This document shows positions 2,733 through 33,080 of a DNA stretch of 36,800 nt, in pieces (the stretch's first letter is position 1; each line of letters begins with the position of its first letter). The notes under the pieces are model-generated. The model was not told the origin of the DNA and searched no databases. It was given only the letters and a program-made list of their open reading frames with translations. The DNA is from a virus (Duplodnaviria; Heunggongvirae; Uroviricota; Caudoviricetes). The stretch lies in IMG/VR virus record IMGVR_UViG_2721755498_000005. One strand, given 5' to 3'. Both the position numbers and the translations under genes were made by a program.

Positions 2733-2775
2733 CCCATCAACCCCGCCATTTCGGTTCAAGGTTGATGGGTTTTTT
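2733..2775 (+). terminator. Rho-independent terminator, probably last host feature before the prophage
   Basis: 10 bp stem cccatcaacc / ggttgatggg followed by TTTTTTGTT on the plus strand. Confidence 0.4.
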
Positions 2776-2855
2776 GTTGTCTGAAATTTAAGCTGTTTAA
2801 AATCATGATGTTAGAAGCACTATTCTTTAACGATGGCGACAAAATGGCGGCAGCG

Positions 2856-3074: not shown

Positions 3075-3164
3075 TTTTCGAGCTCTCCCCATTTTTGCTA
3101 AATTCACAATAATGATACCGCATTATTCCATTTTGCAAACTTAAAAGTTCTCCATTGCGAAGAA

Positions 3165-10144: not shown

Positions 10145-10711
10145 TCAGGGGGATTCATTGATCTTATTTGCCGGAAATTTTCTATAAATGGTAGAAACGC
10201 CTACATCAAAAATCAGTGCAATACGCTGTCTTGATTCTCCGGCCTCGAGTAAACGCCCAATCTGTGCCCACTGTTCGGTGGTCAACTTAGGACGGCGTCC
10301 ACCTACTCTGCCTTTGGCACGAGCTGCAGCCAGCCCTGCCCTGGTACGTTCAACTATCAGTTCGCGTTCCATTTCAGCCAGGGCACCCATGACATGAAAA
10401 AAGAAACGGCCCATTGGGGTACTGGTATCAATACTGTCAGTCAGGCTTCTGAAATTCACACCACGCTGGCGCAACTCTTCTATCAGCGTAACAAGATGCC
10501 GCATACTGCGCCCCAACCTGTCCAGCTTCCAGACAACCAGCGTGTCTCCTGCCGATAGTGTCCTGAGTAGTTTTTTCAGCCCCGGTCTGTCGGACTTAGT
10601 GCCACTGATTTTGTCCTCAAAAATCCGCTCACATCCCGCGCAGTTCAGTGCATTACGTTGCAAATCGGTGTTCTGGTCATTTGTTGACACGCGTACATAG
10701 CCAATAAGCAT
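10145..10711 (-). CDS. Serine DNA invertase (Gin/Hin/Cin/Pin family)
   Basis: MLIGYVRVSTNDQNTDLQRNAL... close to Mu Gin along its length; ATG at 10711 with GGGGG RBS; C-terminal HTH. Confidence 0.9.
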   Translation of the reverse strand: MLIGYVRVSTNDQNTDLQRNALNCAGCERIFEDKISGTKSDRPGLKKLLRTLSAGDTLVVWKLDRLGRSMRHLVTLIEELRQRGVNFRSLTDSIDTSTPMGRFFFHVMGALAEMERELIVERTRAGLAAARAKGRVGGRRPKLTTEQWAQIGRLLEAGESRQRIALIFDVGVSTIYRKFPANKINESP

Positions 10712-10738
10712 GATCATCCCCCTGAATAAAAACCGGAG

Positions 10739-11215
10739 ATGATGCCAGTTAGCTGTTACCTCTGCATTTTCTTAAACGTTGGTTTGGGAGAAGGCTCAGC
10801 ATTACCTGTTGGGGTGCCTGTTCCGTGGCCTTCAGCCACTCCGCCAACAGGCTGGTTGAAATGCAATGGTGCGGCTTTTTCTGCTGAAGAATACCCGGAA
10901 CTGGCAAAGGCTTACCCGACAAATAAATTGCCTGATTTACGCGGTGAATTTATTCGTGGATGGGATGATGGGCGTGGGGTGGATTCCTCTCGTGGTTTGT
11001 TGACATCTCAAGACCATTTATTTGCTTCTCATGAGCACTGGTTTGACCAGTACTATGCGCTAAAAAGTTTTGATCCAACGGGAGGTCGGTTCGTAGTTAC
11101 GGCTGATGCTTTTGGGGAACTTATTACGGCAAATTCAATTTCTACGGTATCGGTTGGTGGTTCTGAAACCCGGCCGCGCAACGTCGCATTTAACTATATC
11201 GTGAGGGCAGCCTGA
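10739..11215 (+). CDS. Alternative tail-fibre C-terminal cassette, silent in this orientation
   Basis: ORF enters the crossover site in frame (..VGLGE..), then tail-fibre-tip-like sequence; lacks its own N-terminus, so expressed only after inversion fuses it to the H N-terminal region. Confidence 0.55.
   Translation: MMPVSCYLCIFLNVGLGEGSALPVGVPVPWPSATPPTGWLKCNGAAFSAEEYPELAKAYPTNKLPDLRGEFIRGWDDGRGVDSSRGLLTSQDHLFASHEHWFDQYYALKSFDPTGGRFVVTADAFGELITANSISTVSVGGSETRPRNVAFNYIVRAA
10767..10792. repeat. Left invertase recombination site (hix/gix-like, 12-2-12)
   Basis: ttttcttaaacg tt ggtttgggagaa; the 15 bp ttggtttgggagaag (10779..10793) is a perfect inverted copy of 12612..12626. Confidence 0.6.
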
Positions 11216-11817
11216 TGAATAAAGCCGTATTAAATAACGAACTCATTGCCATAAAAGCGGGAGACATTACCATTTATAATTATGATGGTGAAACGCGGGA
11301 ATATATTTCCACATCAACTGAATATCTTGCGGTTGGCGTCGGTATACCGGCATGTTCTTGTTTAGATGCACCAGTTACACATAAAGCTGGTTATGCAATC
11401 TGCCGTTCTGCAGATTTTAACTCATGGGAATATGTGCCAGACCATCGCGGTAAAATCATCTATAGCACCGAAACAGGAGAATCGAAAGAAATCACAGCTC
11501 CGGGTGATTACCCTGAAAATACAACCACTATCGCCCCGTTAACGCCATATGATAAATGGGATGGTGAGAAATGGGTGACGGATACTGAGGCACAGCATAG
11601 TGCCGCAGTAGACGCGGCAGAAGCACAGCGCCAGTCACTGATTGATGCAGCAATGGCTTCCATTAGTCTGATTCAGCTGAAATTACAGGCCGGACGGAAG
11701 TTGACGCAGGCAGAAACAACCAGACTTAACGCTGTGCTGGATTACATTGACGCGGTGACGGCAACAGATACCAGCACCGCGCCGGATGTCATCTGGCCTG
11801 AACTGCCGGAGGCGTAG
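11215..11817 (+). CDS. Tail fibre assembly chaperone (partner of the silent cassette)
   Basis: 200 aa with conserved Tfa C-terminus ...VLDYIDAVTATDTSTAPDVIWPELPEA. Confidence 0.7.
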   Translation: MNKAVLNNELIAIKAGDITIYNYDGETREYISTSTEYLAVGVGIPACSCLDAPVTHKAGYAICRSADFNSWEYVPDHRGKIIYSTETGESKEITAPGDYPENTTTIAPLTPYDKWDGEKWVTDTEAQHSAAVDAAEAQRQSLIDAAMASISLIQLKLQAGRKLTQAETTRLNAVLDYIDAVTATDTSTAPDVIWPELPEA

Positions 11818-12241
11818 GCCATTCAATATCTGGCGCACCGGAAGTATCGACTAGCACCAGTGCGTCCAGATAATCCAGCCACAAATTATATTGCGCCAGT
11901 TCGTCATCTTTCAGACGACCAATAGCGGCTTTACCGGGCCATTGCTTACTGTTCATGTATTCGTTGGCCTGGTTAATTAGTAGCTGTCTTTCTGATTCAG
12001 TAATTTCAATAAGCTCTTCATGCGTGGGTGGAGGAATATCTGCCCACGCAGGCATCCCATCATCTCCGGCAATACGGATTTTTCCTTGTGGCGGTTCAGC
12101 CATAAACTCACTGATAATATTTTGATTCACCTCCTTTGCATCTGATAAATCCCATCCCTCTGATTTATATTTATCAATCATATCCACAGGGAAAAAAGCA
12201 TTATGCCTTGCGCTATAAACATATTCGTTCATATAAATCAC
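11789..12241 (-). CDS. G: Tail fibre assembly chaperone gpG (active orientation)
   Basis: 150 aa with Tfa C-terminal motif ...WLDYLDALVLVDTSGAPDIEWPTPP; directly downstream of H. Confidence 0.7.
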   Translation of the reverse strand: MIYMNEYVYSARHNAFFPVDMIDKYKSEGWDLSDAKEVNQNIISEFMAEPPQGKIRIAGDDGMPAWADIPPPTHEELIEITESERQLLINQANEYMNSKQWPGKAAIGRLKDDELAQYNLWLDYLDALVLVDTSGAPDIEWPTPPAVQAR

Positions 12242-12252
12242 CCTGAATAAAA

Positions 12253-13674
12253 TTACTCACCAACAGCCCACCAACTGTAATTCATCGATACTGTGGAACT
12301 GGTTGATGCAGTTCTGTAAGCGGAATTAAAACCGGTTAATGTTGGGCCTTCTGCAGTCATCATGAACCCTCGCCCAGCACCTAAAGGCGCACCACCATCA
12401 CCAGAATGAGTAAGCATGGCGCAGTCCACTTTTTTAGGAAAAGGGATGCTGAATGTAATTCTCATTGTTTGCGTCGATAATGTCGGCGTAACCGCACCAC
12501 GACCATATTGCAGGATTTTCCCGTTGGGTAATTTCATCCATCCATCACCACTGGCAAAAGAGGCCATGTCCGGTATCTGATTTTCCCCTGTCCCCACATC
12601 CCGTTTTGCCGCTTCTCCCAAACCAAGGTATGCGAGAAGACCTGCTACATCCTTTCCACTCAAATGAGTCAGCGTATTGTCCAGCGGTTGTTTACCTGCC
12701 AGCGCATTAAGCATTGTCGTGGCAAAGTTCGGATCATTCCCCAGTGCCGCCGCCAGTTCGTTCAGTGTATCCAGTGCCGCAGGTGCAGAACCCACCATTG
12801 CCGCAATCGCCGATTTCACAAATGCCGTGGTGGCAATCTGTGTATTGTTGACCGACTGTGCCGCAGTAGGTGCTGTTGGCGTTCCGGTGAGTGCCGGACT
12901 CGACAGCGGCGCTTTCAGTGCCAGCGCATTATTAATAGTGGTACTGAATTTCGGGTCATTGTTAATGGCTGCGGCAATTTCTTTCAGTGTGTCCAGCGTG
13001 GCTGGCGCACCGTTAATCAGAGCAGTAATAGCGGCCTGAACAAACTCTGTGGTCGCAATCCGAGTGGTGTTATTTCCTGCTGCAGGCGTCGGCGCTTTTG
13101 GTTCTCCGGTAAATGTCGGATTATGTTTCTGCGCATACTGGGTATGAGGATCTTGTGCGGCAATGTGGTTTCTCATCTGGTCATCCACATACAGCTTTAA
13201 TTCCAGGACTTTATCATCCACGTATTTACGGGTTGCCAGCACTACAGCAGGGTCGATTTTCAGGGTGATATTGTCCGTACTGCTGGTAATCAGCACCATG
13301 CGCACGGTCTGGGTGCGCCCGCTGCCTTCAGCCAGTTGCGGCTTATAGCTTTCCGGGCAGTTGCCCACGGCAATCAATGCCCCGGACTCATCAAACAGGC
13401 CCACTTCACGTATCCACCAACCGCCCTCGTTTTCAGGGATCACCTGTTCAGCAATAATCTGGCTGCTGTTCTGCGGGTCGATATAAAGCATATTCAGCGC
13501 AGCCCGGCGTTTCTCATTTACCAGTGCCGTCTGCTTTGCGTCCGGCGTTGGCAATACTCCGCCGCCATCGCCCACCGCCATATGGGTAATTTTTAGCGGC
13601 ACACCGAGCGCGGCGGCGCTGGCAAGTTTCGCCGCGCCAATATCCGTCAGCAGGGTATAAAATTTTGTGCTCAT
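12253..13674 (-). CDS. H: Tail fibre protein gpH (constant N-terminus plus currently joined variable C-terminus)
   Basis: 473 aa; N-terminus MS.KF.T..T..GAAKLA...MAVGDGGG as in P2 H; crossover site at codon about 349. Confidence 0.8.
   Translation of the reverse strand: MSTKFYTLLTDIGAAKLASAAALGVPLKITHMAVGDGGGVLPTPDAKQTALVNEKRRAALNMLYIDPQNSSQIIAEQVIPENEGGWWIREVGLFDESGALIAVGNCPESYKPQLAEGSGRTQTVRMVLITSSTDNITLKIDPAVVLATRKYVDDKVLELKLYVDDQMRNHIAAQDPHTQYAQKHNPTFTGEPKAPTPAAGNNTTRIATTEFVQAAITALINGAPATLDTLKEIAAAINNDPKFSTTINNALALKAPLSSPALTGTPTAPTAAQSVNNTQIATTAFVKSAIAAMVGSAPAALDTLNELAAALGNDPNFATTMLNALAGKQPLDNTLTHLSGKDVAGLLAYLGLGEAAKRDVGTGENQIPDMASFASGDGWMKLPNGKILQYGRGAVTPTLSTQTMRITFSIPFPKKVDCAMLTHSGDGGAPLGAGRGFMMTAEGPTLTGFNSAYRTASTSSTVSMNYSWWAVGE
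12613..12638. repeat. Right invertase recombination site inside gene H
   Basis: ttctcccaaacc aa ggtatgcgagaa; resembles the hix/gix centre AAACCAAGGT; inverted copy of the left site. Confidence 0.6.
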
Positions 13675-14276
13675 GGATTCACTCTCATTGTGTCAATAAC
13701 ATGGACCGCCCCGCCTTCATGCGCGGTGCCACCGGAAATAATCGTTTCGTTGATATACGGATAGATCGTGATTTCTTCGCCAAGATAGCTGGCGGCTCCC
13801 ACCCAATGCGGGCCGCTGGTCTGCAGATTGATGGACATGCCGATCATGTGGCGGCTACATGGTTTGGCATCGCTTATCAGTCGCTCAAGTTCCAGATAGG
13901 TATCTTCAGTGATGCCCTGGTCCTGCACGCCGATATCTAGGCGAAACGTGCCCGCTGCCTCTCCGGTCTGCCACCACTCAATAATGCGGATCAGAAAGCC
14001 GAACGGCTCCACCACCCGCCGCACGGCACTGGTGGTCCCTTTATGCTGATGAATATAAAAAGCATCCTTCACCACCTGGCGCTTGACGCTTTCTGTCCAG
14101 CCCTCGTCCCAGCGATCCACAGAGAACGCCCAGGCGAGATAAGGCAGGAAACTGACCGGACAGGTTGCCGGATTCCACAAGTCACGAAGCGGCACCTGCA
14201 GATCAGAAATCCCGCTGCAGGTTTGCGCCAGTCGGCGCTCCAGTGGTGTTGAACCCGGTGGCAGCAGACTATTCAT
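13671..14276 (-). CDS. I: Baseplate/tail protein gpI
   Basis: 201 aa; resembles P2 gpI (ELWNP..CP...LP.LAWAFSVDRWDE.W); ATGA overlap with H. Confidence 0.75.
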   Translation of the reverse strand: MNSLLPPGSTPLERRLAQTCSGISDLQVPLRDLWNPATCPVSFLPYLAWAFSVDRWDEGWTESVKRQVVKDAFYIHQHKGTTSAVRRVVEPFGFLIRIIEWWQTGEAAGTFRLDIGVQDQGITEDTYLELERLISDAKPCSRHMIGMSINLQTSGPHWVGAASYLGEEITIYPYINETIISGGTAHEGGAVHVIDTMRVNP

Positions 14277-16190: not shown

Positions 16191-16952
16191 ATGAAAGACA
16201 ATTTAAATCTTCTTATAAAAAAATTAATAAGAAAGGCATTTCCTGAATTTAGCAATAAGGTAACATGGACTTTACTCACTGCAGGGATCGGTATTCTTGC
16301 ACTACCTGCACCCACATATTTATTATTCGTAAACCTTATAATTGATTTTTACAACAAAACAACTAATTCAGAAATAAGCCTTCTTAAGATTGATAGCATT
16401 ACACCAAGTAGTGGGGTTGCTTTAACTTTAATTCTATCCGGGCTAGTCTTTCACCTATTAATAAAAGTCCCCCATATATACCAAGAAATTCTAAAAGAGA
16501 ATAACCAAAAAGAAATACAGGAAAGAAAAAGAGTAGCAGACGTTAAACTTTATGAGGCATTTATTGATATTCTACCAACAACCTCGTTATCAATTGAATT
16601 CTTAAAAGACCATAATTTTGAAAACTCCTATCATGATAATAATACAAAAGATATTAGTAATCTTGAATACGGGTGGGGTCATGCAGATCAACATTTTCAT
16701 GACAATGAAATTGAAGATAAAGCCACTCATCTTTACAGTGAAATAATAAAGTTTAATTATTTTCTCGCTTATAAATCGCACAATATCAATAACTATATGT
16801 TTAGCATGCTTACTGACAGAGATCGAGCTATGGTGATGGAATTACTACCTCAAACAAAGGAAAATATAAAAATAGCCAATGAGTGGAGTTCTACAATTCA
16901 TCAGCTTTACTGTGACTTTATCTCCACATGTAGGAATAACTTAGCCATATAA
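16191..16952 (+). CDS. Hypothetical membrane protein, AT-rich moron between V and S
   Basis: 253 aa ORF with AAGGA RBS; visibly AT-rich against GC-rich flanking phage genes; two predicted N-terminal TM helices; opposite strand to the surrounding late operons. Confidence 0.5.
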   Translation: MKDNLNLLIKKLIRKAFPEFSNKVTWTLLTAGIGILALPAPTYLLFVNLIIDFYNKTTNSEISLLKIDSITPSSGVALTLILSGLVFHLLIKVPHIYQEILKENNQKEIQERKRVADVKLYEAFIDILPTTSLSIEFLKDHNFENSYHDNNTKDISNLEYGWGHADQHFHDNEIEDKATHLYSEIIKFNYFLAYKSHNINNYMFSMLTDRDRAMVMELLPQTKENIKIANEWSSTIHQLYCDFISTCRNNLAI

Positions 16953-21941: not shown

Positions 21942-22775
21942 TCAGCAATTGGTCAGAGTGTCAGCGGGGGCGTTACCGCCTGTTGCACGCTGGCGGTAGT
22001 CCTGGCGGCTGTCTTCATGGCTCAGCTTGTCCACCAGTTCGTTAAAGGCGGTCAGCTGTGCCTGCAGGGCAGTCTCCAGCTCAGACAGGCGTTCTTCCTG
22101 CTCAGACAGGGATTTTTCGGTGCGCGCACTCAGGTTCTGCTGCTCAGTGGCGACCAGTTCCACGGCCTTATGCACATCAGAGAACCGGGCGTCATCGGAC
22201 TGCTCTTTTTTGGTGAACAGCGCCGTGACACGGGCAAACAGGGACGGTTTGTCCTCCTGGATTTCTTCCAGTTCGATCACCGTTTCCTCTGCAGCGGTAA
22301 AGAGATTGGCGGGATTCTGCTTGCGGTTTGCCAGCGGGTTATGGGCTGCACTGGCGCTGAATGTCAGCATTTCAGTGCCCAGACTGGCAGGGTCATCAGT
22401 GGCAGCCAGGCCGACCAGGTAGGCTTTGCCCGTATCAGCAAACTTCGGGCTGACTTCCATAGAGGTGAATAATTTCTGGCCTTTTTTCACCAGTTCCACC
22501 AGGGACTCCGTTGGCTCAACGTCGGCATACAGCGCCATCTTGCCCGCCAGCGGACCTTCCGTGATTTCTTCAGCAAACAGCGCCGTCACCTTGCCGTAGC
22601 GGTTAAAGGTGCTGTCCGGCAGATAAGACTTGATGTGCTCAAGGTTAATCAGCGCGGTATACACCGCCGGGTTGTAGCTGGCTGCCATCTGTTCCAGCCA
22701 TTCACGCTGGATTTCGCGTCCGTCGGTGGTGGCACCTTCCACCCCGATGCGAAAACGCTTTGCTTTCACTGTCAT
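21942..22775 (-). CDS. O: Capsid scaffolding protein gpO
   Basis: 277 aa, acidic coiled-coil C-terminal half; first gene of the leftward late operon, divergent from P. Confidence 0.8.
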   Translation of the reverse strand: MTVKAKRFRIGVEGATTDGREIQREWLEQMAASYNPAVYTALINLEHIKSYLPDSTFNRYGKVTALFAEEITEGPLAGKMALYADVEPTESLVELVKKGQKLFTSMEVSPKFADTGKAYLVGLAATDDPASLGTEMLTFSASAAHNPLANRKQNPANLFTAAEETVIELEEIQEDKPSLFARVTALFTKKEQSDDARFSDVHKAVELVATEQQNLSARTEKSLSEQEERLSELETALQAQLTAFNELVDKLSHEDSRQDYRQRATGGNAPADTLTNC

Positions 22776-22917: not shown

Positions 22918-24684
22918 ATGAACACCACACTGACACCCGCAGATCTCGATCCCCGTCGGCAGGCCATGCTGCTGTACTTTCAGGGATACCGCGTCGCCCG
23001 CATTGCTGAAATGCTGGGCGAGAAAGTTGCAACCGTTCACAGCTGGAAAAAACGCGACAAGTGGGGTGACTATGGGCCGCTGGATCAGATGCAGCTCACC
23101 ACCGCCGCACGCTACTGCCAGCTCATTATGAAGGAGCACAAAGAAGGGAAAGATTTCAAAGAAATTGACCTGCTGGCACGCCAGTCTGAGCGCCACGCGC
23201 GGATCGGCAAGTTTAACAATGGCGGAAACGAAGCCGACTTAAACCCTAACGTTGCCAACCGCAACAAAGGCCCACGTCGTCAGCCGGAAAAGAATGTTTT
23301 CACCGATGAACAGATTGAGAAACTGGAAGAAATCTTCCATTCCTCTATGTTCAACTACCAGCGCCACTGGTGGGAAGCCGGAAAAACCAACCGCATCCGC
23401 AACCTGCTGAAGTCACGCCAGATCGGCGCGACCTTTTACTTTGCCCGTGAAGCCCTGATTGACGCCCTGCTGACCGGGCGTAACCAGATTTTCCTTTCTG
23501 CCAGCAAGGCTCAGGCCCACGTCTTTAAACAGTACATCATCGACTTTGCCAAAGAAGTGGAGGTGGAGCTGAAAGGCGATCCGATGGTGCTTCCTAACGG
23601 GGCCACGCTTTACTTCCTCGGCACCAATGCCCGCACGGCCCAGAGTTACCACGGCAACCTGTATCTGGATGAATATTTCTGGATACCAAAATTCCAGGAG
23701 CTGCGCAAAGTGGCTTCCGGTATGGCTATTCACAAGAAATGGCGACAAACCTATTTTTCCACGCCATCCAGTCTGACACACAGTGCTTATCCGTTCTGGT
23801 CCGGTGCGCTGTTCAACCGTGGGCGCAACAAAGCCGATAAGGTGGACATCGACCTGTCCCACAGCAATCTGGCCCCCGGCCTGCTGTGCGCAGACGGGCA
23901 ATACCGCCAGATAGTCACCGTGGAAGATGCGGTGCGCGGCGGCTGTAACCTGTTCGACCTCGACCAACTACGCATGGAGTACAGCCCGGACGAATACCAG
24001 AACCTGCTGATGTGCGAGTTTGTGGACGATCTCGCGTCCGTGTTTCCGCTCAGCGAGCTGCAGGCGTGCATGGTGGACAGCTGGGAAGTCTGGACCGACT
24101 TTCATGCACTGGCCCTTCGCCCGTTTGGGTGGCGCGAAGTGTGGATCGGTTATGACCCGGCAAAAGGTACGCAGAACGGCGACAGCGCCGGATGCGTGGT
24201 GGTGGCACCGCCAGCCGTGCCGGGCGGTAAGTTCCGTATTCTTGAGCGCCACCAGTGGCGCGGGATGGACTTCCGCGCCCAGGCGGACGCCATCAAAAAA
24301 CTGACCGAACAGTACAACGTGACATATATCGGCATCGACTCGACGGGTGTCGGTCACGGAGTTTATGAGAACGTGAAAGCGTTTTTTCCAGCCGTCCGGG
24401 AGTTTGTCTACAACCCCAACGTTAAAAACGCTCTGGTACTCAAGGCCTACGACATTATCAGCCACCGCCGTCTGGAGTTTGACGCCGGGCACAGCGACAT
24501 TGCGCAGTCATTCATGGCAATCCGTCGCGCCACCACCGCCAGCGGCAACCGCCCGACCTATGAAGCCAGCCGCAGCGAAGAAGCCAGCCACGCCGATCTG
24601 GCCTGGGCAACGATGCACGCATTGTTTAACGAACCGCTGCAGGGCGAATCCGCCAATACCAGCAATATTGTGGAGATTTTTTGA
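22918..24684 (+). CDS. P: Terminase ATPase (large) subunit gpP
   Basis: 588 aa, size and position as P2 P; divergent from O. Confidence 0.9.
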   Translation: MNTTLTPADLDPRRQAMLLYFQGYRVARIAEMLGEKVATVHSWKKRDKWGDYGPLDQMQLTTAARYCQLIMKEHKEGKDFKEIDLLARQSERHARIGKFNNGGNEADLNPNVANRNKGPRRQPEKNVFTDEQIEKLEEIFHSSMFNYQRHWWEAGKTNRIRNLLKSRQIGATFYFAREALIDALLTGRNQIFLSASKAQAHVFKQYIIDFAKEVEVELKGDPMVLPNGATLYFLGTNARTAQSYHGNLYLDEYFWIPKFQELRKVASGMAIHKKWRQTYFSTPSSLTHSAYPFWSGALFNRGRNKADKVDIDLSHSNLAPGLLCADGQYRQIVTVEDAVRGGCNLFDLDQLRMEYSPDEYQNLLMCEFVDDLASVFPLSELQACMVDSWEVWTDFHALALRPFGWREVWIGYDPAKGTQNGDSAGCVVVAPPAVPGGKFRILERHQWRGMDFRAQADAIKKLTEQYNVTYIGIDSTGVGHGVYENVKAFFPAVREFVYNPNVKNALVLKAYDIISHRRLEFDAGHSDIAQSFMAIRRATTASGNRPTYEASRSEEASHADLAWATMHALFNEPLQGESANTSNIVEIF

Positions 24685-25712
24685 TGGGAAAGATTAAGAA
24701 AAACCGCGCTGCGGCGACGAATCAGCTCAAGCATAAAAGCCAGACTTCAGCCGAAGCATTCAGCTTCGGTGATCCCGTTCCTGTACTTGACCGCCGCGAA
24801 CTGCTGGACTATGTGGAATGCGTACAGACAGATCGCTGGTATGAGCCTCCTGTCAGCTTTGACGGACTGGCGCGCACCTTCCGCGCTGCCGTGCATCACA
24901 GTTCACCAATTGCGGTGAAATGCAACATTCTGACCAGCACCTACATCCCTCACCCGCTACTCAGCCAGCAGGCTTTTTCGCGTTTTGTGCAGGACTATCT
25001 GGTTTTTGGTAACGCCTACCTGGAGAAACGCACGAACCGCTTCGGTGAAGTTATCGCCCTTGAGCCTGCACTGGCAAAATACACCCGACGCGGGTTAGAC
25101 CTGGATACCTACTGGTTTGTGCAATACGGTATGACAACCCAGCCGTATCAGTTCACGAAAGGCAGCATTTTTCATCTGATGGAACCGGACATTAACCAGG
25201 AGATCTACGGCCTGCCCGGTTATCTTTCTGCCATTCCGTCAGCTCTGCTCAACGAGTCCGCCACGCTGTTCCGCCGCAAGTATTACATTAACGGCAGTCA
25301 TGCAGGCTTCATCATGTACATGACCGATGCTGCGCAGAACCAGGAGGATGTGAACAACCTCCGCAATGCGATGAAAAGCGCCAAAGGACCAGGTAACTTC
25401 CGCAATCTGTTTATGTACTCGCCTAACGGCAAAAAGGACGGACTTCAGATCATCCCATTGTCAGAAGTCGCGGCGAAGGATGAGTTTCTGAATATCAAGA
25501 ACGTGAGCCGGGATGACATGATGGCTGCGCACCGCGTGCCGCCGCAGATGATGGGGATCATGCCGAATAATGTTGGGGGGTTTGGGGATGTAGAGAAAGC
25601 TGCTAATGTTTTTGTGAGGAATGAACTCATCCCTTTACAAAAAAGACTAGAAGAGCTGAACGAATGGATAAATGAAGAAGTTATTAATTTCGTGAGTTAT
25701 TCAATTACCTAA
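24681..25712 (+). CDS. Q: Portal protein gpQ
   Basis: 343 aa, overlaps the P stop; size and order as P2 Q; last 25 or so codons are AT-rich. Confidence 0.85.
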   Translation: MMGKIKKNRAAATNQLKHKSQTSAEAFSFGDPVPVLDRRELLDYVECVQTDRWYEPPVSFDGLARTFRAAVHHSSPIAVKCNILTSTYIPHPLLSQQAFSRFVQDYLVFGNAYLEKRTNRFGEVIALEPALAKYTRRGLDLDTYWFVQYGMTTQPYQFTKGSIFHLMEPDINQEIYGLPGYLSAIPSALLNESATLFRRKYYINGSHAGFIMYMTDAAQNQEDVNNLRNAMKSAKGPGNFRNLFMYSPNGKKDGLQIIPLSEVAAKDEFLNIKNVSRDDMMAAHRVPPQMMGIMPNNVGGFGDVEKAANVFVRNELIPLQKRLEELNEWINEEVINFVSYSIT

Positions 25713-25715
25713 TAA

Positions 25716-25746
25716 ACAAAAAGGCCATTAAATGGCCTTTTTGTTT
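25716..25746. terminator. Bidirectional rho-independent terminator between Q and the retron RT
   Basis: aaaaaggccatt aa atggccttttt hairpin with an A-run on one side and a T-run on the other; overlaps the RT stop codon. Confidence 0.5.
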
Positions 25747-26702
25747 TTAGGAAAAAGAACACTTAGATCAACCCCATATGCTTCAGACATTTTATTTGAG
25801 AAAGTCATCAATTTTCTATAGTTTTTCTTGTCTACACTTTTAACAAACGCAATAAGTCCTTTAACATGTTCGAAATCAGAATTTCTTTTTACCGCCAGAT
25901 AATGGATCTTACTTCTAATTTCGCGATAACGTATTCTGCCAACTCCAACATTATCAATAGATAAAACGAGCCCAGTAACCTCCTTCCTTGCTTTGGGGCC
26001 ATGAATCGCAACTTTATTATAATTAACCTTCAAAGATTCACTTGGTATTATAGAGCATACAAATGACTTAGCTTTAAGTATTTTTTTTAAAGATTGAGCA
26101 GATAAAGTCAAATCATCGGCATATCGAGTAAATACGATCCCCTTACTACCTGCATATCCATGTATTCTATAATCTAATTTAGTTAAAACAAGATTCGCAA
26201 TCTTTGGAGAAGATGGTGCACCTTGAGGTAGCGAACCATTAAATGAACACAATCTTGCTAAAGCATTAGAAATAGTAGAGTTATACCCCAGAGAATGAAA
26301 AACAGTATAGATTTTCTCTATCAGAATAGTATTAAAACAATCTTCTAAATCAATATTTAATACATAGTTAGCTCCTACATGTGGGCTGGCATTATTTAAT
26401 ATTGATTGCCCTTTTTCAAAGCCTTTGGAAAATGGGGATGAATGTAACTTATCAAGGATGTTTCTTAACACCCAAGCTTGCAATGCCTTCAGCTCACGTG
26501 ATGGCTGTGAAATGATGCGGGATCTCTTGCCATCTCTTTTTGGCAACGAATAAACCTTATAGTATTTGTCAGCACGATAAATGTACAACCGGAGTATGTC
26601 TACTGATAAACGCATTTCTCTAGACATATCCTCTAAAGAGGACATAACAGGCAATCCAAGATTGCGTAAGCGAAAAACCTGAGATGGTGTTGCGGAAGTC
26701 AT
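25728..26702 (-). CDS. Retron-type reverse transcriptase
   Basis: 324 aa; RT motifs NIDLEDCF and FTRYADDLTLS (YxDD); size like retron RTs; ATG directly after the a2 repeat of the msr-msd. Confidence 0.85.
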   Translation of the reverse strand: MTSATPSQVFRLRNLGLPVMSSLEDMSREMRLSVDILRLYIYRADKYYKVYSLPKRDGKRSRIISQPSRELKALQAWVLRNILDKLHSSPFSKGFEKGQSILNNASPHVGANYVLNIDLEDCFNTILIEKIYTVFHSLGYNSTISNALARLCSFNGSLPQGAPSSPKIANLVLTKLDYRIHGYAGSKGIVFTRYADDLTLSAQSLKKILKAKSFVCSIIPSESLKVNYNKVAIHGPKARKEVTGLVLSIDNVGVGRIRYREIRSKIHYLAVKRNSDFEHVKGLIAFVKSVDKKNYRKLMTFSNKMSEAYGVDLSVLFPKNKKAI

Positions 26703-26866
26703 GAGCGCACCCTTACGTCATAAAAATCAGATTCCGAAGTGAAAGGAGAACATCGGGAGATGTTCTCCTTTCAATGAGGGAACTGGTAAAACTTCAGATT
26801 GTATGTAGGACAGCGAAACACTGTCCAGTGAACTTCCGGAGAAGCCACTCGCTAAGGGTGCGCAAA
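26703..26866 (-). ncRNA. Retron msr-msd non-coding RNA (template for multicopy single-stranded DNA)
   Basis: Flanking 11-13 bp inverted repeats (26705..26717 gcgcacccttacg and 26851..26863 cgtaagggtgcgc) in a1/a2 arrangement; perfect 14 bp stem with 4 nt loop at 26741..26772; minus-strand 5' end TGCGCACCCTTAGCGAG and 3' end GACGTAAGGGTGCGC match my recollection of Ec86. Confidence 0.65.
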
Positions 26867-27763
26867 ACGCATCCTATCATAGTGGAGTATTGTTTTACCA
26901 CGATTTTCGAAGTTCATCATATCCAGTCGTAGATTGTCCAAAGCCTTTCGATCAAAATGCTCAAGAACGTATTGCATACCAATTTCTGTAATATGGTATC
27001 CTTGAACTGAACGCCTAATTATTGACTCTTTAATCAAGCTTGAAATAACAGACTTAACGATAATTTCACAAAGAATAGCATCTTTCTTAGTCACCAAATG
27101 TAATAGCTCATATAGAAGTATATTATCTATACCATCCATCAAATATATACATGGCAGTATAAAACGCCGAGCGTGAAGAATATTATCTATTGAGTGATTA
27201 ACTGGGTTATTTTTTTTGATGTCATTAATACTTTTTATAATTCTATTATAAAAAGCTTTACCTGTACTCAAGCTTTCAAGAGTCGACAAATCTCCTCGCA
27301 ATACTGCACCGCTATTAGCACGCCGAAGCAGTTTTATAGGCCCATAATTAAGAAAGCTTTTTTTAAGTTTGAATTTGTCATCCTGAAGACATATCATTTT
27401 TTTGCACAGTTTTTCATTATTTGAAAATGCGCCCAATTCAGCGAAAGACCCTGGGCTTTCAGGAATAATAATAATAACATCGACTGAATCAGCTAAAATA
27501 TTCTCCAAACTTAAAAGACTATGCTGACCTTGTCCATACAAAAGCTCATCAAACAACTCCTCAGGATAGAATATTTCTATTTTGGGATGTGTTTCCAACA
27601 CTCTTTTAACTTTATTTCTACAAAAAAACGGATCATTCAAATCGCCCCCGCAAAGGAAAACAGTAACTTTATTTTTATTTTTCTGTTGAAAAAGCCGACT
27701 TTTAATTAAATTTGCCAGATTTTGCTTCTGCAACTCCGGAATAGTTTTCTTTTTCATATCCAC
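26852..27763 (-). CDS. Retron effector, nucleoside 2-deoxyribosyltransferase-like (NDT-like) protein
   Basis: 303 aa AT-rich ORF immediately upstream of the msr-msd; motif IIIIPESPGSFAELGAF resembles the NDT catalytic-glutamate motif; stop codon lies inside the a1 repeat. Confidence 0.7.
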   Translation of the reverse strand: MDMKKKTIPELQKQNLANLIKSRLFQQKNKNKVTVFLCGGDLNDPFFCRNKVKRVLETHPKIEIFYPEELFDELLYGQGQHSLLSLENILADSVDVIIIIPESPGSFAELGAFSNNEKLCKKMICLQDDKFKLKKSFLNYGPIKLLRRANSGAVLRGDLSTLESLSTGKAFYNRIIKSINDIKKNNPVNHSIDNILHARRFILPCIYLMDGIDNILLYELLHLVTKKDAILCEIIVKSVISSLIKESIIRRSVQGYHITEIGMQYVLEHFDRKALDNLRLDMMNFENRGKTILHYDRMRFAHP

Positions 27764-27823
27764 TTTTCCTCAGAATGATCCCATCTTTTATACAACATTC
27801 AAATCTGAGTTTCCACCCGCTGC

Positions 27824-27847
27824 GCGCGCTCGTATCCCCGCCACGCC
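27824..27847. other. Putative cos site (cohesive-end region)
   Basis: Minus-strand reading GGCGTGGCGGGGATACGAG matches the first 13 nt of the 186/P2 19-nt cohesive end as I recall it; lies in a GC-rich 244 bp intergenic region. Confidence 0.35.
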
Positions 27848-28007
27848 TGCCCGCTTTATGTAGCGGTTTTCATGCGCCTGCATGACATAAGCAAAATCCC
27901 GCCACTCCTGGCGGGCCTCAGCTAAAACGATCCTCAAACGATCATGCGGATTCATGCGGCATAGACATGCACAATCTCCAAAGCGGGCATCGAGACTTTT
28001 TGGAAAC

Positions 28008-28619
28008 CTACGTAACCACAGTTAATGTGTGCATCCTGTCTCGAATTGCATCACACGTCTCATCAAAAAGCTTGGTGATGGTTGTATGGTTCAACTCCGC
28101 CTCTTTCCAATAATTTTGCCCGTCAAATTCTGGATCGCTATGCTTAAACGATATTGACTCTGAAAGGCATTCCTTCCGGAAACGGTCCAAGATTATATAA
28201 ACCTCTGGTGAGATGAACGGTTTGTTAGATTCAACACTTGTAACAAAAGTGTTAAATGCATCAGAAAAAACTTTCAACCTTCTAAATTTTCTCTCTTCAA
28301 ATGGTTCGTTGGGGTCAACATGATCCAGCGCAGGCCTCAGCTTAAGCACGCTTTCTCTGGTTTCAAACATCGAATTCCAAATGAGACTATATGCTGATAA
28401 CTCCTTATCAAAATACGCTTTCGTTACATAAACAGAATTGTCTAACTTAGCCTTTATTCTTTCATTAGTTGCACTCAGTTGTGATTGAAATTCAGCAATA
28501 TCTTTGTTTAGCCGCGACTTATATCTTTCTAAATAAACTTTCCCGATCCAAACAAATATGCCAGATGCAACAAAAGACACCCCACCCAACGAAGCCAGAA
28601 CTTTAAAGACTAAATCCAT
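28008..28619 (-). CDS. Hypothetical membrane-anchored protein (accessory region next to cos)
   Basis: 203 aa ORF; ATG with GGTGGGGG RBS; N-terminal TM helix then a predicted coiled-coil/soluble domain; no family recognised. Confidence 0.5.
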   Translation of the reverse strand: MDLVFKVLASLGGVSFVASGIFVWIGKVYLERYKSRLNKDIAEFQSQLSATNERIKAKLDNSVYVTKAYFDKELSAYSLIWNSMFETRESVLKLRPALDHVDPNEPFEERKFRRLKVFSDAFNTFVTSVESNKPFISPEVYIILDRFRKECLSESISFKHSDPEFDGQNYWKEAELNHTTITKLFDETCDAIRDRMHTLTVVT

Positions 28620-28667
28620 TGCGCCCCCACCTGCAAAAATAGTATTCCATTATAAGCTAATACATTT

Positions 28668-28883
28668 TTAATCAAACAGGGGATAATTCGCGTCAACCTC
28701 ATCACTTCTCTGCTCTACCCTAGTGACTTCCATCAAAAACCCCAGGCCGTCATATAGCGAAACGGGGAATTCCAGCTCAAGCCAGAAGCAGTCTTCATAG
28801 ATGCGGCCCAACCAAAAACCTCCGCCACACTCCTTTGGGCGTTGAAAGAAGACCCAGTCGCCAAGGGTTAAACGTTCCAGCAC
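28668..28883 (-). CDS. Hypothetical small protein (doubtful)
   Basis: 71 aa ORF with GTG start and weak RBS, 48 bp upstream of the 203 aa gene; may be a remnant. Confidence 0.25.
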   Translation of the reverse strand: MLERLTLGDWVFFQRPKECGGGFWLGRIYEDCFWLELEFPVSLYDGLGFLMEVTRVEQRSDEVDANYPLFD

Positions 28884-29001
28884 CTAGCCCCGATAAATAA
28901 TCTGGTGATTACTGTCTTTTTTACCCATGGCTAACGCCTCGCTACTCTCGTTGTTCAACCTTGCTGACGTCAGATTCAAGTTCTTACATCAGGAACGTTC
29001 C

Positions 29002-29587: not shown

Positions 29588-32002
29588 TTAATACAGGTTC
29601 CGCCACTTATCATCTTCCTGCAAACGCTGGTTCCGATAGAAGACACGCAGGCCTGCTCCTGACGGAATACTGCCGCCGCGAAGGAGTAAATCGACCTCTT
29701 TCTCGCTGCCATCAAATCCTCTGGACTTCAGTTCATAGACGAGCTGCTGTCGTTGATGGTCTGTAATTCGCTGTTTGTAGTCTCTACGCCGTTTCGGTTT
29801 CACCAGGCGTAACCTTGCAGCCAGTTCCCGGCGCTCTTTTTTGTTCATACTGTGCAGGTAATCGTGCAACTCCTTGTCATCCATGTGGGTAATGTCCGTT
29901 CTGGTATCCCCATCAGCTGATTTGTCTTTCCCTTGTTGGTTCAAATTTTCAGCAAGGGGACAGTTATTGCCACGAGTCCAAGGGGCGCAAGCGCCCTGGT
30001 CGGCTGCCGCCTCCTGAACGTCAACGGCTTTACGAACCATTTTCCACTTCACTGCATGAGTGCAGATCTTGCCCTCTGCAATGGGTGACCAGATGCCATA
30101 AATACGAATGCCGTGATCGCCATAGGCGGTCGGCTCTTCGTTGATTTCATAAGCGGTTCTGATGAGGTGATATTTACGGGGAACCAGTACGCCGCCCTGC
30201 TTCATGATGTAGGTGGCAAAACAACCAGCATCAGCAGCAGCCAGGATGGCATCAAGGCGCGGGTTATCCAGTACCGGCGCACCTGCTTTTTTGTCCCCCT
30301 TTTGCCTTACCGCCTGACCAGCCAGCAATCGCAGTTCACGGTAAGCCTGACGCCCCGGAATGCCAAAGAAGCGGAATTGCTGAACACGATGCAAAGACGC
30401 CCAGGCATTCACGTATTCAGCGTTATCACGCAGAGATTTACCCGTTTCCTTGCTGATCTCGCCAGCCAGACCACGCCCGTCAATGTTCTTACTGATGTAT
30501 TTCGCTATGTAGCTTGTCGGCGTTCCTTTGCGCGGGTTAATCAGCTCAGACTTAAAGCGCGGCCCCGTGTTATTGCCCAGCTCCTCGCGGTCTTCACGGA
30601 TAGCAAACTTACGCAACAATGCTGTAATGGCGCGGCGGTCTTTTTTGCGCATGAAACACAACAGGTGCCAGTGAACTGTGCCGTCGTGATGCGGCTCAGC
30701 CACCCGCACGCCATACCAGCGCAACCCGGCTTTGTGCATCGCCTTACGAAATGCAGCAAACATACCGACCAGATAATCGCTGCTTTGTCTTACCGTCGCA
30801 TTTGTCCAGGTCGGGTTGGGCCTGCCGTTATTTAGCGTGGAATGGAAACGTGACGGACAGGTGATGGTGTAGAAAACGGCGCAGTCACCGCGCATTTCCG
30901 CGATAAGCTCCAGACCTTTAACACAGGCCATCATCTCATTGCGGCGATGCGCAGGGTTGCTGCTGCTGGCGTTTACCACATCCTCCATGTCTAGCGTGTC
31001 GCCGTCTTCGTTCACCAGTTCATGAGAACGGAAAAACTCCAGCGACTTACGGCGCTGCTCACGTTTATGCAACACGGCTTCATAGCTGACATAGGGAGAT
31101 GCTTTTTTGCTGACAAGGCAGACAGCACGCAACTGCTCTTCCCGCCATTCGCAACGCATCTTCCATAATTTCCGATACCACCAGTCGGCGCACAACATAC
31201 GCGCCAGCGAACCCGGAATGAGTTCATAGGGCACGGGTTTACGGCGGTTTCTTTTCCGACGGAGTTGCTCAAACGCAGGCGGGATGACATCCAGACGCAG
31301 GGTTTCCGCTGCCACCCTTTCCCATGTATTGCGGATTTCTTCTGGCTTAACGTCATCGGTGGCATACAAATCGCCACAAGCGGCATCAAGGCACATACTC
31401 ATATGCGCAGCTACCAGGGTGGACAGGCGTTTCACCTGATCCTGACTCATTTCAGGCAGGATCAGCAGGCCGTCCAGCCCTTCATGGCTTGCCATAAAGC
31501 GAAAAGATGCAGATAGCTGACTGTCGCGTACATGCTCCAGTCGTTCCAGACATGGCTTAATCGTCTCACGTAAATAGCGGGAATAAGCCTTTGGCCTGCC
31601 CAGGCTGCTGAAGTATTCAATACGTTGCATCAGCGGCTTGCTGATATGGGAAGGCTGGGCGTTGACGTCCGCCAGAATGACCATATCCGGATTAAAACGC
31701 TGCTGCTCATGCGCCAGCTTTGCCCGACTAATGAGCTTATCCTGTTCCATTTCGCGCTGGACAGGATCACGGGATTCATTAAAGAAATAACGCTCCCAGA
31801 CCTGATCACTCAGCGCCTCACGGCGCAGCTGTTCCTGCTCGTTATCGGCAGCGTACAGAGTGATCAGGTTTGAAAGCGTAGAAACCGGCGCAACTTCCAC
31901 CGGGTCCAGATAAGGGTTAATGGCCTTTTTCGAGCTGTTCCATGAGAACGATGCGGCAGCTTCGTTAAAGCCGCAGCAGTTGTTCATATCGGCATGACTC
32001 AT
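29588..32002 (-). CDS. A: Replication initiation endonuclease gpA (rolling-circle)
   Basis: 804 aa with the active-site tyrosine motif [12 protein letters not shown]. Confidence 0.85.
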
Positions 32003-32856
32003 GCACGTACTCCGTACACGGCAGAACTATCCACGCCACGCGAATAATCAAATCCCACCCAGCAGCGCGGCCCGGAAACAGCAATGATTTCTGTTGCTGA
32101 TTTACCCTCGCCAGCTGCCACACCGATGCTGCGTTTTGCCTTGATGTAGTGGTGAGTAAAATTGCGATACAGCGAACGGATCAGGGATGTGTCACTGTTA
32201 GAAACAATGACCGGATGTCCTTCTGATGACCGATGTTCAAGAACAGATGCCAGGTGATACTGGTCATCTTCAGTGAAGCCGTCAGTGTGATAGCCGGAAA
32301 ACGTACCGTCATACGGCGGATCGCAATACACCACATCCCCCGCCTTCAACATCGCCAGCGTTTCATCAAAGCTGGCGCAGATAAACGTTGCTCGCTGGGC
32401 CTTTTCTGCAAATGCGCGAATTTCTTTTTCAGGGAAATACGGATTTTTATAATTACCGTAGGGAATGTTGAAATGCCCGCTCTTGTTATAGCGACATAAA
32501 CCACGGTAACCGTGACGATTGAGATACAGGAAATATACCGCTTTCATGAAATCAGTAATTTCAGTTGAGTAATTAAACTCCTGCCTTATGTTGTAATAAG
32601 CCACCTCCCTGTTTGCGATCTCAAATAAAACTCTGGCGCGAGATATAAACGATTCACAATCAGCGGCAACCTTTTTATAGAGGTTGATTAAATCAGGATT
32701 AATATCCGCAACCAGATAGCTGGGATAATCCGTCTCCATCATCACAGCACAGGAACCCGCGAAAGGTTCAACCAGTCGCGGGCCAGCAGGAAGATGTTTT
32801 TTTAGTTCGGACATTATGGCAGTTTTATTTCCCGCCCATTTCAGGATGGTGCTCAT
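31999..32856 (-). CDS. DNA N6-adenine methyltransferase (Dam-like)
   Basis: 285 aa from the ATG at 32856 (GGAGGTG RBS); [12 protein letters not shown]-terminus, FAGS and DPPY motifs; ATGA overlap with the upstream gene. Confidence 0.8.
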
Positions 32857-33080
32857 ACAGCACCTCCGTTGTAATGTTTGCCTTTCAGCTCTGCGATTTC
32901 CTGACAGGTAATGCAAAGCTGCACACCCGGAATGGCACGGCGGCGTGCTGGCGGAATTGGCGCTTCACACTCAATGCAAAGCACGCGGGACACGCCCGGC
33001 GTTTTGGCACGGGCAGCACGGATATGGCGTTGGCGTTCTTCTTCAACGCGCTGCTGTACGAGATCCATTGCATCAGCCAT
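32853..33080 (-). CDS. TraR/DksA-family C4 zinc-finger protein
   Basis: 75 aa with CIECEAPIP...CITCQE (C-x2-C-x17-C-x2-C). Confidence 0.7.
   Translation of the reverse strand: MADAMDLVQQRVEEERQRHIRAARAKTPGVSRVLCIECEAPIPPARRRAIPGVQLCITCQEIAELKGKHYNGGAV

What the first reader, a model, noticed from the sequence alone, without database searches (positions are those of the whole stretch)
25600..28007. Retron sits between portal gene Q and the putative cos site, with an AT-rich junction replacing the Q 3' end
In P2 the Q 3' end lies a short distance from cos. Here about 2.1 kb of AT-rich DNA (the retron) separates the Q stop (25712) from a cos-like sequence at 27824..27847. The last 25 or so codons of Q are themselves AT-rich, suggesting the insertion recombined within the Q 3' end. 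The retron would be packaged at the extreme left end of the virion genome. The cos call rests on a remembered 13 nt match only.
Basis: partly seen in the sequence, partly recalled or inferred. Interest (0 to 1): 0.5.

Follow-up and report, generated by a model that had tools for sequence, protein, structure and literature searches.

The report
Ec86-like retron in prophage cos–portal slot
A complete Ec86-type anti-phage retron sits between the packaging (cos) site and the portal gene of a P2/186-family prophage, a position reported for retrons Ec67 and Ec86 in 1996, so the finding is correct but largely ordinary.

Summary
The 19-nt cohesive end maps to 27829..27847 (minus strand, GGCGTGGCGGGGATACGAG). 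It is identical to the cos of phages SEN8 and Cartapus and lies in the roughly 55-bp core shared with P2, 186 and P4. It is the only such site in the window. Between it and the portal (Q) stop lie 2.1 kb at 35% GC. This DNA encodes a complete type II-A retron: NDT-like effector, 160-nt msr-msd RNA and reverse transcriptase. The RT is 59% and the effector 50% identical to Retron-Eco1/Ec86, which occupies the same slot in E. coli BL21. Phages with an empty slot (P2, 186, Yersinia phage MLG42) have only 151-169 nt there.

A near-identical block, 25581..27857, recurs in different prophage backbones. It comprises the last ~130 nt of Q, the retron and the cos core. This Q-tail allele occurs only in genomes with this retron. 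Q tails next to cargo are low in GC (GC3 0.27-0.54); empty-slot tails are not (0.72-0.82).

The placement was described by Dodd & Egan (1996) and falls within the gpA-gpQ defence hotspot of Rousset et al. (2022). The modest new point is that the portal tail and cos act as cassette boundaries.

The parts
24681..25712 (+). Portal gene Q. RefSeq relatives start at the ATG at 24684.
   Evidence: TIGR01540 portal_PBSX 2.3e-109. Full-length alignment with P2 Q, 186 W, and the SEN8 and Cartapus portals.
25581..25712 (+). Cassette-linked Q tail: the last ~37-44 codons of Q. Homologous to other portal C-termini but low in GC (last 111 nt: GC 0.315, GC3 0.30).
   Evidence: Mismatch maps put the left edge of the near-identical block at 25578-25581. 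Similarity to portals with other cargo breaks at about 25598. The allele is found only in genomes with this retron. GC and GC3 values.
25714..25746 (.). Perfect 16-nt-arm palindrome flanked by A and T runs. Probably a bidirectional intrinsic terminator for the P-Q operon and the retron operon. It contains the RT stop codon and takes the place of tQ/tW.
   Evidence: Inverted repeat I4, 100% complementary. Folds at -24.9 and -24.5 kcal/mol on the two strands. P2 tQ and 186 tW occupy the equivalent position. Function is inferred.
25728..26702 (-). Retron reverse transcriptase, 324 aa, with the YADD motif.
   Evidence: PADLOC RT_II-A 4.9e-123. NCBIfam retron_St85_RT 272 bits against a cut-off of 235. 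PDB Ec86 RT 5e-124. 59.5% identical to the Ec86 RT.
26705..26864 (-). msr-msd non-coding RNA, 160 nt. The a1 repeat (26864-26853) lies inside the effector's last codons. The a2 repeat (26715-26705) lies just upstream of the RT ATG. The msd hairpin is at 26785-26728. Predicted msDNA is about 82 nt.
   Evidence: The 11-nt a1/a2 repeat is perfect (I24). The region aligns column by column with the Ec86 msr-msd of BL21. The fold gives -59 kcal/mol, z = -5.15. Length estimate. No Rfam family matched.
26852..27757 (-). Retron effector, 301 aa: nucleoside-deoxyribosyltransferase-like N-glycosidase of the Ec86/St85 family.
   Evidence: PADLOC NDT_II-A 2.5e-97. NCBIfam NF038232 186 bits against a cut-off of 100. 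PDB 7v9x_C/8qbm Ec86 effector 5e-92 over the full length. 49.7% identical to the Ec86 effector.
27787..27815 (-). Putative sigma-70 promoter of the retron operon (TGGAAA-17 nt-TATAAA), within the 64-nt leader between the cos core and the effector ATG.
   Evidence: Read directly from the sequence. A similar TATAAA box sits in the Ec86 leader of BL21. It was not reported by the consensus scan, which requires T at position 6 of the -10 hexamer. Inferred only.
27822..27875 (-). cos core of about 54 nt. It comprises the 19-nt cohesive end (27847..27829), CGCGCGC on the Q side (27828..27822) and about 28 nt on the A side (27875..27848).
   Evidence: Junction alignment with P2, 186, P4, SEN8, Cartapus and five E. 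coli prophages. Unique in the window. The 55-bp core concept of Ziermann & Calendar 1990 is cited in PMC5694545 and PMC9122126.
27898..27915 (-). Intrinsic-terminator-like hairpin that ends transcription from the A-side cargo before cos. It is in a position analogous to 186 t95b.
   Evidence: Terminator scan hit. Folds at -18.4 kcal/mol. Conserved in Cartapus, SEN8 and the E. coli relatives. 186 t95b annotation.
27973..28900 (-). Separate A-side cargo slot, the position of P2 old/tin. Here it holds a 203-aa ORF (28008-28619) and a 71-aa ORF (28668-28883), both of unknown function.
   Evidence: No hits in NCBIfam, PADLOC or Pfam. The same pair occurs in Cartapus and E. coli WEC. This slot differs among genomes that share the retron.

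Best explanation
The region is an intact type II-A retron defence cassette, a sister of Retron-Eco1/Ec86. It occupies the cargo slot between cosL and the portal gene of a 186/Fels-2-like (Peduoviridae) prophage integrated at the rybB-ybjL locus.

Expression (inferred). The cassette carries its own expression signals. A likely promoter lies in the 64 nt after the cos core. The genes run effector, then msr-msd, then RT. A palindromic bidirectional terminator is shared with the convergent P-Q operon.

Defence mechanism (by homology with Eco1). The RT copies the msd into an msDNA of about 82 nt. The msDNA-RT complex holds the N-glycosidase effector in check. Infection by another phage perturbs the msDNA, and the effector then hydrolyses NAD(P)+, aborting the infection.

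Cassette exchange. The cassette moves between related prophages by homologous recombination, not by any mobility of its own. The left crossover lies in the last well-conserved stretch of Q, about 25580-25600, so the last ~37-44 codons of Q travel with the cargo. The right crossover lies in the conserved cos core. The cargo on the other side of cos assorts independently.

Virion position. After cos cleavage the retron would occupy roughly nt 27-2135 of the virion chromosome, at its left end.

Shown here: gene identities, ncRNA homology, cos homology, block boundaries and linkage. Inferred: promoter, terminator function, msDNA synthesis, defence activity, cos cleavage and packaging.
For: Retron identity:
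- RT and effector match type II-A models and the solved Ec86 structures.
- They are 59.5% and 49.7% identical to Ec86.
- The ncRNA aligns with the Ec86 msr-msd and has perfect 11-nt a1/a2 repeats.

Same slot as Ec86: BL21(DE3) has portal, convergent Ec86 RT, effector, then cos, in the same order and spacing. Its slot is 2133 nt against 2109 nt here.

cos: the 19-mer is identical to SEN8 and Cartapus, and the core is conserved with P2, P4 and 186. It is unique in the window.

Empty-slot comparators: P2 160 nt, 186 169 nt and MLG42 151 nt, each with a GC-rich terminator.

Cassette exchange:
- The block 25581-27857 has 0-5 mismatches against nine genomes whose flanks differ by about 4-7%; a tenth, L028, is offset by an effector frameshift.
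- CP184822.1 is identical on the Q side and in the block, but differs from 27864 onwards.
- At least 6 different A-side contents occur among 10 contexts of the identical RT.
- The Q-tail allele is exclusive to retron carriers.
- There are no flanking direct repeats and no transposase or integrase.

Literature:
- Ec67 and Ec86 replace about 180 bp between cos and the packaging-gene terminator (PMC6868368, PMC5694545, PMC7826664, citing Dodd & Egan 1996).
- The gpA-gpQ cos-proximal defence hotspot includes retrons (PMC9122126).
- The Eco1 mechanism is summarised in PMC12673091.
Against: - No experiment here shows msDNA, defence activity, cos cleavage or packaging.
- No isolated phage in the phage collection carries this retron; the best phage RT hits are 32% identical or less. 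Viability of a phage carrying it is therefore inferred from gene content and genome size.
- The Ec86 msd has a CCWGG site, the target of the phage Dcm trigger reported for Eco1. This ncRNA has none, so the trigger may differ.
- The consensus promoter scan found no promoter in the leader.
- Why the Q tail is low in GC is not explained by recombination alone.
Confidence: 0.88

Rival explanations
1. The retron inserted here by its own mobility, either by retrotransposition or by site-specific insertion into the free cos end of linear phage DNA. On this view the low-GC Q end is insertion-junction DNA.
For: Retrons were once proposed to be mobile. The right cargo boundary lies exactly at the edge of the cos core in this window and in BL21, Cartapus and SEN8. 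That could suggest end-directed insertion.
Against: The low-GC Q end encodes a full-length, homologous portal C-terminus, so it derives from another portal gene and not from junction DNA. There are no target-site duplications, terminal repeats or recombinase genes. Unrelated cargo (DUF4145, AIPR, Hypoth_Ymh, HNH) uses the same boundaries. Block edges coincide with conserved sequence on both sides.
Confidence: 0.04
2. The prophage is a defective remnant, as in E. coli B. The cos-like site is then a relic and the retron is never packaged.
For: The Ec86-bearing prophage of BL21 is degraded, with truncated A, cII and lysozyme genes. No isolated virion genome in the phage collection carries this retron.
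Against: The window has uninterrupted ORFs of the expected sizes for D through Q, A, Dam, CII, CI and int. It is colinear with the relatives over 17.7-35.1 kb. The cos core is identical to that of the isolated or induced phages Cartapus, SEN8 and MLG42. The prophage is about 34 kb, within the 31-35 kb range of packaged relatives. The identical cassette occurs in several diverged backbones, which suggests ongoing phage-mediated exchange.
Confidence: 0.1
3. The low-GC Q tail is a lineage trait of Fels-2/Elveevirus-type portals and has nothing to do with the cargo.
For: Every cargo-bearing example examined belongs to this lineage. P2 and 186, which have empty slots and GC-typical tails, belong to other genera.
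Against: Yersinia phage MLG42 is an Elveevirus whose portal is 88% identical. It has an empty slot of 151 nt and a GC-typical tail (GC 0.586, GC3 0.78). Tail sequences differ by cargo type and are identical within a cargo type. Mean pairwise identity along Q falls from about 0.88 to 0.53 only in the last 150 nt. The same-lineage control is, however, a single phage type.
Confidence: 0.08

Closest known systems
Retron-Eco1 (Ec86) in the defective 186-related prophage of E. coli B/BL21 (Dodd & Egan 1996; structures 7v9x, 8qbk-8qbm)
   Same: Same slot, between the cos core and the portal stop, and the same order and orientation: effector, msr-msd, RT convergent on the portal gene. Leader length is similar (about 64-67 nt) and slot length is similar (2133 against 2109 nt). 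The 19-nt cos is the same. The ncRNAs are homologous, with the a1 repeat inside the effector 3' end.
   Different: The RT is 59.5% identical, the effector 49.7% and the DNA about 68%. The predicted msDNA is about 82 nt rather than 85-86 nt. There is no CCWGG site in the msd. The Q-tail allele differs (GC 0.315 against 0.414). The host prophage here looks intact rather than degraded.
Retron-Eco2 (Ec67) in a 34-kb 186-related prophage carrying a Dam methylase
   Same: Reported to replace the same ~180 bp between cos and the packaging-gene terminator (PMC6868368, PMC7826664). This prophage also encodes a Dam methylase (31999-32916) and is about 34 kb.
   Different: Ec67 is a single RT-nuclease fusion of a different retron type. 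The RT here matches it only at 8e-29. The Ec67 locus itself was not examined here.
The gpA-gpQ cos-proximal defence hotspot of P2-like phages (Rousset et al. 2022, PMC9122126) and the old/tin locus of P2
   Same: Low-GC defence cargo next to cos in P2-family prophages. Retrons are listed among the cargo.
   Different: That work treats gpA to gpQ as one hotspot. Here the interval resolves into two slots separated by the cos core, and they assort independently. P2's own cargo, old and tin, is on the A side, and its Q-side slot is empty.
Type II-A retron (St85-like gene order) of Klebsiella phage 4LV2017 and related Klebsiella prophages
   Same: Another retron with an St85-family effector and an RT, lying between cos and the portal gene of an Elveevirus. 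Its Q tail is also low in GC, at 0.297.
   Different: The RT is only 29% identical. The effector and RT genes abut with no room for an ncRNA between them, so the msr-msd presumably lies upstream.

Membership tests
Type II-A retron (Ec86/Eco1-like) | Retron-clade reverse transcriptase with a YADD catalytic motif | tested here: met
   PADLOC RT_II-A 4.9e-123. NCBIfam NF038233 272 bits against a cut-off of 235. PDB Ec86 RT 5e-124. RYADDL is present in the translation.
Type II-A retron (Ec86/Eco1-like) | Adjacent NDT-like (N-glycosidase) effector of the STM3845/St85 family | tested here: met
   PADLOC NDT_II-A 2.5e-97. NF038232 186 bits against a cut-off of 100. PDB 7v9x_C 5e-92 over residues 1-301.
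Type II-A retron (Ec86/Eco1-like) | msr-msd ncRNA bounded by a1/a2 inverted repeats, with msr stem-loops and an msd hairpin directly upstream of the RT | tested here: met
   Perfect 11-nt a1/a2 repeat at 26853-26863 and 26705-26715. Alignment to the Ec86 ncRNA, including the TTAGCGAG context after a1. Fold z-score -5.15. No Rfam family matched.
Type II-A retron (Ec86/Eco1-like) | Production of branched msDNA, and RT/msDNA-dependent restraint of a toxic effector that confers phage defence | not testable with these tools
   Needs msDNA gels or sequencing, toxicity assays and plaque assays.
P2/186-family cos site | 19-nt cohesive-end sequence homologous to experimentally defined P2/186 ends | tested here: met
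   15 of 19 positions match 186 and 14 of 19 match P2. 19 of 19 match the annotated putative cos of SEN8 and Cartapus.
P2/186-family cos site | Conserved ~55-bp core: the A-side ~28 nt, the cohesive end, and YGCGCGC | tested here: met
   Junction alignment of P2, P4, 186, SEN8, Cartapus, the window and the E. coli prophages.
P2/186-family cos site | Cleavage by terminase to give the virion DNA ends | not testable with these tools
   Requires induction and end sequencing.
cosL-Q cargo slot (Dodd & Egan 1996) | Foreign DNA replaces the ~150-180 nt, including the terminator, between the cos core and the portal stop | tested here: met
   Empty slots are 151-169 nt with a terminator in MLG42, P2 and 186. 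The slot is 2109 nt here, with a new palindromic terminator.

The most novel reading that the evidence does not exclude
The cos-proximal 'hotspot' of P2-family phages may really be two independently assorting cargo slots separated by the ~55-bp cos core. On the Q side the exchanged unit would include the last ~37-44 codons of the essential portal gene. That portal tail would then evolve with the accessory cargo: it is cargo-specific, 3-7 residues shorter than in empty-slot phages, and has synonymous sites shifted to AT (GC3 0.27-0.54 against 0.72-0.82). If so, part of a core structural gene behaves as accessory genome. The portal tail could also be used as a barcode for the neighbouring defence cassette, and cos itself would be a recombination junction.
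Probability: 0.6. Interest if true: 0.35.

Novelty: new member of a known kind. Interest (0 to 1): 0.22.

Why it matters
The placement itself adds little, because retrons at cosL-Q have been known since 1996 and the cos-proximal hotspot since 2022.

The practical value is an exact delimitation of a naturally portable Ec86-family retron with its own promoter, ncRNA and terminator. The cassette spans the cos core edge at 27821 down to the palindromic terminator at 25714.

The evidence also suggests that such cassettes move between P2-family prophages by homologous recombination anchored in the portal 3' end and in cos. If that is general, it gives a simple rule for finding and delimiting defence cargo in these phages. 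It also flags that swapping a cassette changes the portal C-terminus.

Tried and rejected
- **Rfam:** a gathering-threshold scan of the whole window found only RybB and no retron ncRNA family. The ncRNA was identified instead by alignment to Ec86.
- **Promoter scan:** the consensus scan found nothing in the cos-effector leader. The proposed promoter was read by eye and is only inferred.
- **First genome-contig scan:** run with the RT alone, it found no relatives.
- **Second genome-contig scan:** run with an RT alignment, it found only 56-57% relatives in Bowmanella and Rheinheimera. Both are low-GC islands and neither lies beside a P2-type portal or cos. The search for a low-GC donor phage that would explain the Q tail therefore failed.
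- **Phage collection:** no isolated phage carries this retron.
- **Dodd & Egan 1996:** the paper is not held, so its content is taken from three citing papers.
- **Self-mobility:** no direct repeats or mobility genes flank the cassette, so this explanation was rejected.
- **The 55-aa ORF across cos (27788-27955):** judged unlikely to be a gene. It has no family hit and is unannotated in most relatives.
Full report
**Layout.** In window orientation the region reads:
- scaffold gene O, 21942-22775 (-)
- terminase gene P, 22918-24684 (+)
- portal gene Q, 24681-25712 (+)
- a 324-aa ORF, 25728-26702 (-)
- a 150-nt gap
- a 301-aa ORF, 26852-27757 (-)
- a GC-rich stretch of about 250 nt
- a 203-aa ORF, a DinI-like gene and replication gene A, 29588-32002 (-)

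GC drops from about 0.53 to about 0.31 near 25600 and recovers near 27800. This is the P2/186 gene order read in reverse.

**The retron.**
- The 324-aa protein is a type II-A retron reverse transcriptase. It scores PADLOC RT_II-A 4.9e-123 and NCBIfam retron_St85_RT 272 bits against a cut-off of 235. It matches the PDB Ec86 RT at 5e-124.
- The 301-aa protein is the matching NDT-like effector. It scores NDT_II-A 2.5e-97 and NF038232 186 bits against a cut-off of 100. It matches the Ec86 effector in PDB 7v9x/8qbm at 5e-92 over its full length.
- The gap holds the msr-msd RNA, 26864..26705 on the minus strand. It has perfect 11-nt a1/a2 repeats, two msr stem-loops and a long msd hairpin. The fold gives -59 kcal/mol, z = -5.15.
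- The RNA aligns column by column with the Ec86 msr-msd of BL21.
- The RT is 59.5% and the effector 49.7% identical to Ec86. The msd-equivalent segment is 82 nt.
- Unlike Ec86, the ncRNA has no CCWGG site. PMC12673091 reports that a phage Dcm methylase triggers Eco1 by methylating the msd. The trigger here may therefore differ.

**The cos site.**
- The reverse complement of 27829..27847 is GGCGTGGCGGGGATACGAG.
- This is the first 19 nt of the Salmonella phage SEN8 record, annotated as the putative cos. It also lies inside Cartapus's annotated cos.
- It matches the experimentally defined 186 and P2 cohesive ends at 15 and 14 of 19 positions.
- I circularised the ends of P2, 186, P4, SEN8 and Cartapus and aligned them with the window and five E. 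coli prophages. This shows one conserved core: about 28 nt on the A side, the 19-nt end, then YGCGCGC. Beyond that, all sequences diverge on the Q side.
- P4 shares only this core with P2, in line with the 55-bp core of Ziermann & Calendar cited in PMC5694545 and PMC9122126.
- The site is unique in the window.
- Cargo therefore starts at 27821. The slot is 2109 nt long.

**Comparison with other slots.**
- The slot is empty in P2 (160 nt), 186 (169 nt) and Yersinia phage MLG42 (151 nt), apart from a GC-rich terminator.
- It holds other cargo in many relatives: DUF4145 in Cartapus and E. coli WEC, AIPR, Hypoth_Ymh, a hypothetical protein plus HNH in SEN8, and a 1.7-kb ORF in Fels-2.
- Klebsiella phage 4LV2017 carries a different type II-A retron there.
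- BL21(DE3) carries Ec86 in exactly this slot with the same architecture.

**This is published knowledge.**
- Dodd & Egan (Virology 1996) showed that Ec67 and Ec86 replace about 180 bp between cos and the packaging-gene terminator of a 186-related prophage.
- The cosL-Q position was proposed then as a site for picking up foreign genes (PMC6868368, PMC5694545, PMC7826664).
- Rousset et al. 2022 described the gpA-gpQ cos-proximal hotspot, with retrons among its cargo.

**The Q 3' end.**
- Q is full length and its C-terminus is homologous to other portals.
- Its last 111 nt have GC 0.315 and GC3 0.30, against 0.53 and 0.64 for the rest of the gene.
- I compared the window with genomes that carry the same retron: KFu015, 97.3, VG888-46E9, LR-48 and ten loci found through the exact RT protein, one of which is strain 97.3 again. 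Mismatches are dense up to 25577/25580. There are then 0-5 across 25581-27857, and they are dense again from 27853-27864.
- One locus, L028, is an exception only because a frameshift in the effector offsets the ungapped comparison.
- The exchanged unit is therefore the Q tail, the terminator, the retron, its leader and the cos core.
- Among 5,426 complete E. coli genomes the Q-tail allele occurs at 99% identity or better only in the four that carry this retron. In one of them IS1 has cut the retron 226 nt after the Q stop.
- Across about a dozen portals of this lineage, mean pairwise identity is 0.83-0.93 along most of Q. It falls to 0.78, 0.67 and 0.53 in the last 150 nt. GC falls to 0.30 in cargo-bearing genomes but stays at about 0.59 in empty-slot MLG42.
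- Each cargo type has its own tail.
It extends to other cargo in this slot.

**Two slots, not one.**
- The identical RT protein is indexed in 888 blocks of the assembly collection.
- In all 10 contexts read, it lies between the effector and the portal gene. The A side of cos carries at least six different contents.
- CP184822.1 is identical to the window through Q and the cassette but differs from 27864 onwards. This places a recent breakpoint at cos.
- A conserved terminator-like hairpin at 27915-27898 separates A-side transcription from cos. The retron therefore presumably uses its own promoter. TGGAAA-17-TATAAA at 27815-27787 is a candidate, but only an inferred one.
- A perfect 16-nt-arm palindrome at 25714-25746 replaces tQ/tW and contains the RT stop codon.

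**What remains unexplained.**
- The AT shift of the Q tail is not accounted for. I found no low-GC donor phage.
- The nearest non-enterobacterial relatives of the retron, in Bowmanella and Rheinheimera, are low-GC islands that are not beside a P2-type portal.
- The retron's low GC therefore seems intrinsic to it.
- One possible reading is long-term linkage of the tail to the cargo, without recombination with the GC-typical backbone. That is speculation.

**Verdict.** The placement is a further instance of an arrangement known since 1996, involving a distinct Ec86-family retron that is already annotated in RefSeq genomes. The portal-tail and cos cassette boundaries are a modest refinement.

Noticed in passing
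window 935-2778: A ybjL-type permease gene (935-2620; Asp-Al_Ex plus TrkA_C) and the RybB sRNA gene (2700-2778; Rfam 105 bits) abut the D-gene end of the prophage. The prophage therefore sits at the rybB-ybjL locus. This is the same chromosomal neighbourhood as the Ec86 prophage of BL21 (873-885 kb).
   Followed up: partly
window 27973-28900: The A-side cargo slot holds a 203-aa ORF (28008-28619) and a 71-aa ORF (28668-28883), with no NCBIfam, PADLOC or Pfam family. Some RefSeq genomes name the 203-aa protein 'valyl-tRNA synthetase'. That name seems to rest only on a weak, sub-threshold coiled-coil hit (PF10458, E = 0.009).
   Followed up: partly
L011 (E. coli LR-48) 5001-5979; L028 (CP184814.1) 2947-3851: This retron shows decay in two relatives. 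In LR-48 an IS1 truncates it 226 nt after the Q stop and removes cos. In CP184814.1 a frameshift splits the effector into 140-aa and 145-aa pieces while the RT stays intact.
   Followed up: partly
window 26705-26864: The ncRNA lacks any CCWGG or GATC site. The Ec86 msd has one CCWGG, the motif targeted by the phage Dcm trigger reported for Retron-Eco1.
   Followed up: partly
window 31999-32916: The prophage encodes a D12-class adenine methyltransferase (Dam; PF02086, 1.2e-76) next to gene A, as reported for the Ec67-bearing prophage.
   Followed up: no
window 10145-12241: A serine DNA invertase (10145-10717; Resolvase plus HTH_7) lies beside oppositely oriented tail-fibre-region ORFs. This suggests an invertible host-range segment.
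   Followed up: no
window 16191-16952: A 253-aa ORF lies on the strand opposite the late genes, between the V-like and S-like genes, at the position of P2 orf30. It has no Pfam hit and is possibly another cargo gene.
   Followed up: no
window 27788-27955: A 55-aa ORF on the minus strand runs straight across the cos core. It has no family hit. A similar small ORF is annotated in MLG42 and XH988. It is probably an artefact of the conserved cos flank.
   Followed up: no
L014 (E. coli O68:H12 97.3) 12307-13794: A group II intron RT/maturase is inserted between the DinI-side small ORF and gene A in an otherwise near-identical prophage.
   Followed up: no
L036 (Bowmanella denitrificans) 2431-4400; L037 (Rheinheimera tangshanensis) 2437-4406: Effector-RT pairs 56-57% (RT) and 46-47% (effector) identical to this retron form low-GC islands (GC 0.34-0.41) in genomes of higher GC. 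No P2-type portal, terminase or cos lies within 3.5 kb.
   Followed up: partly
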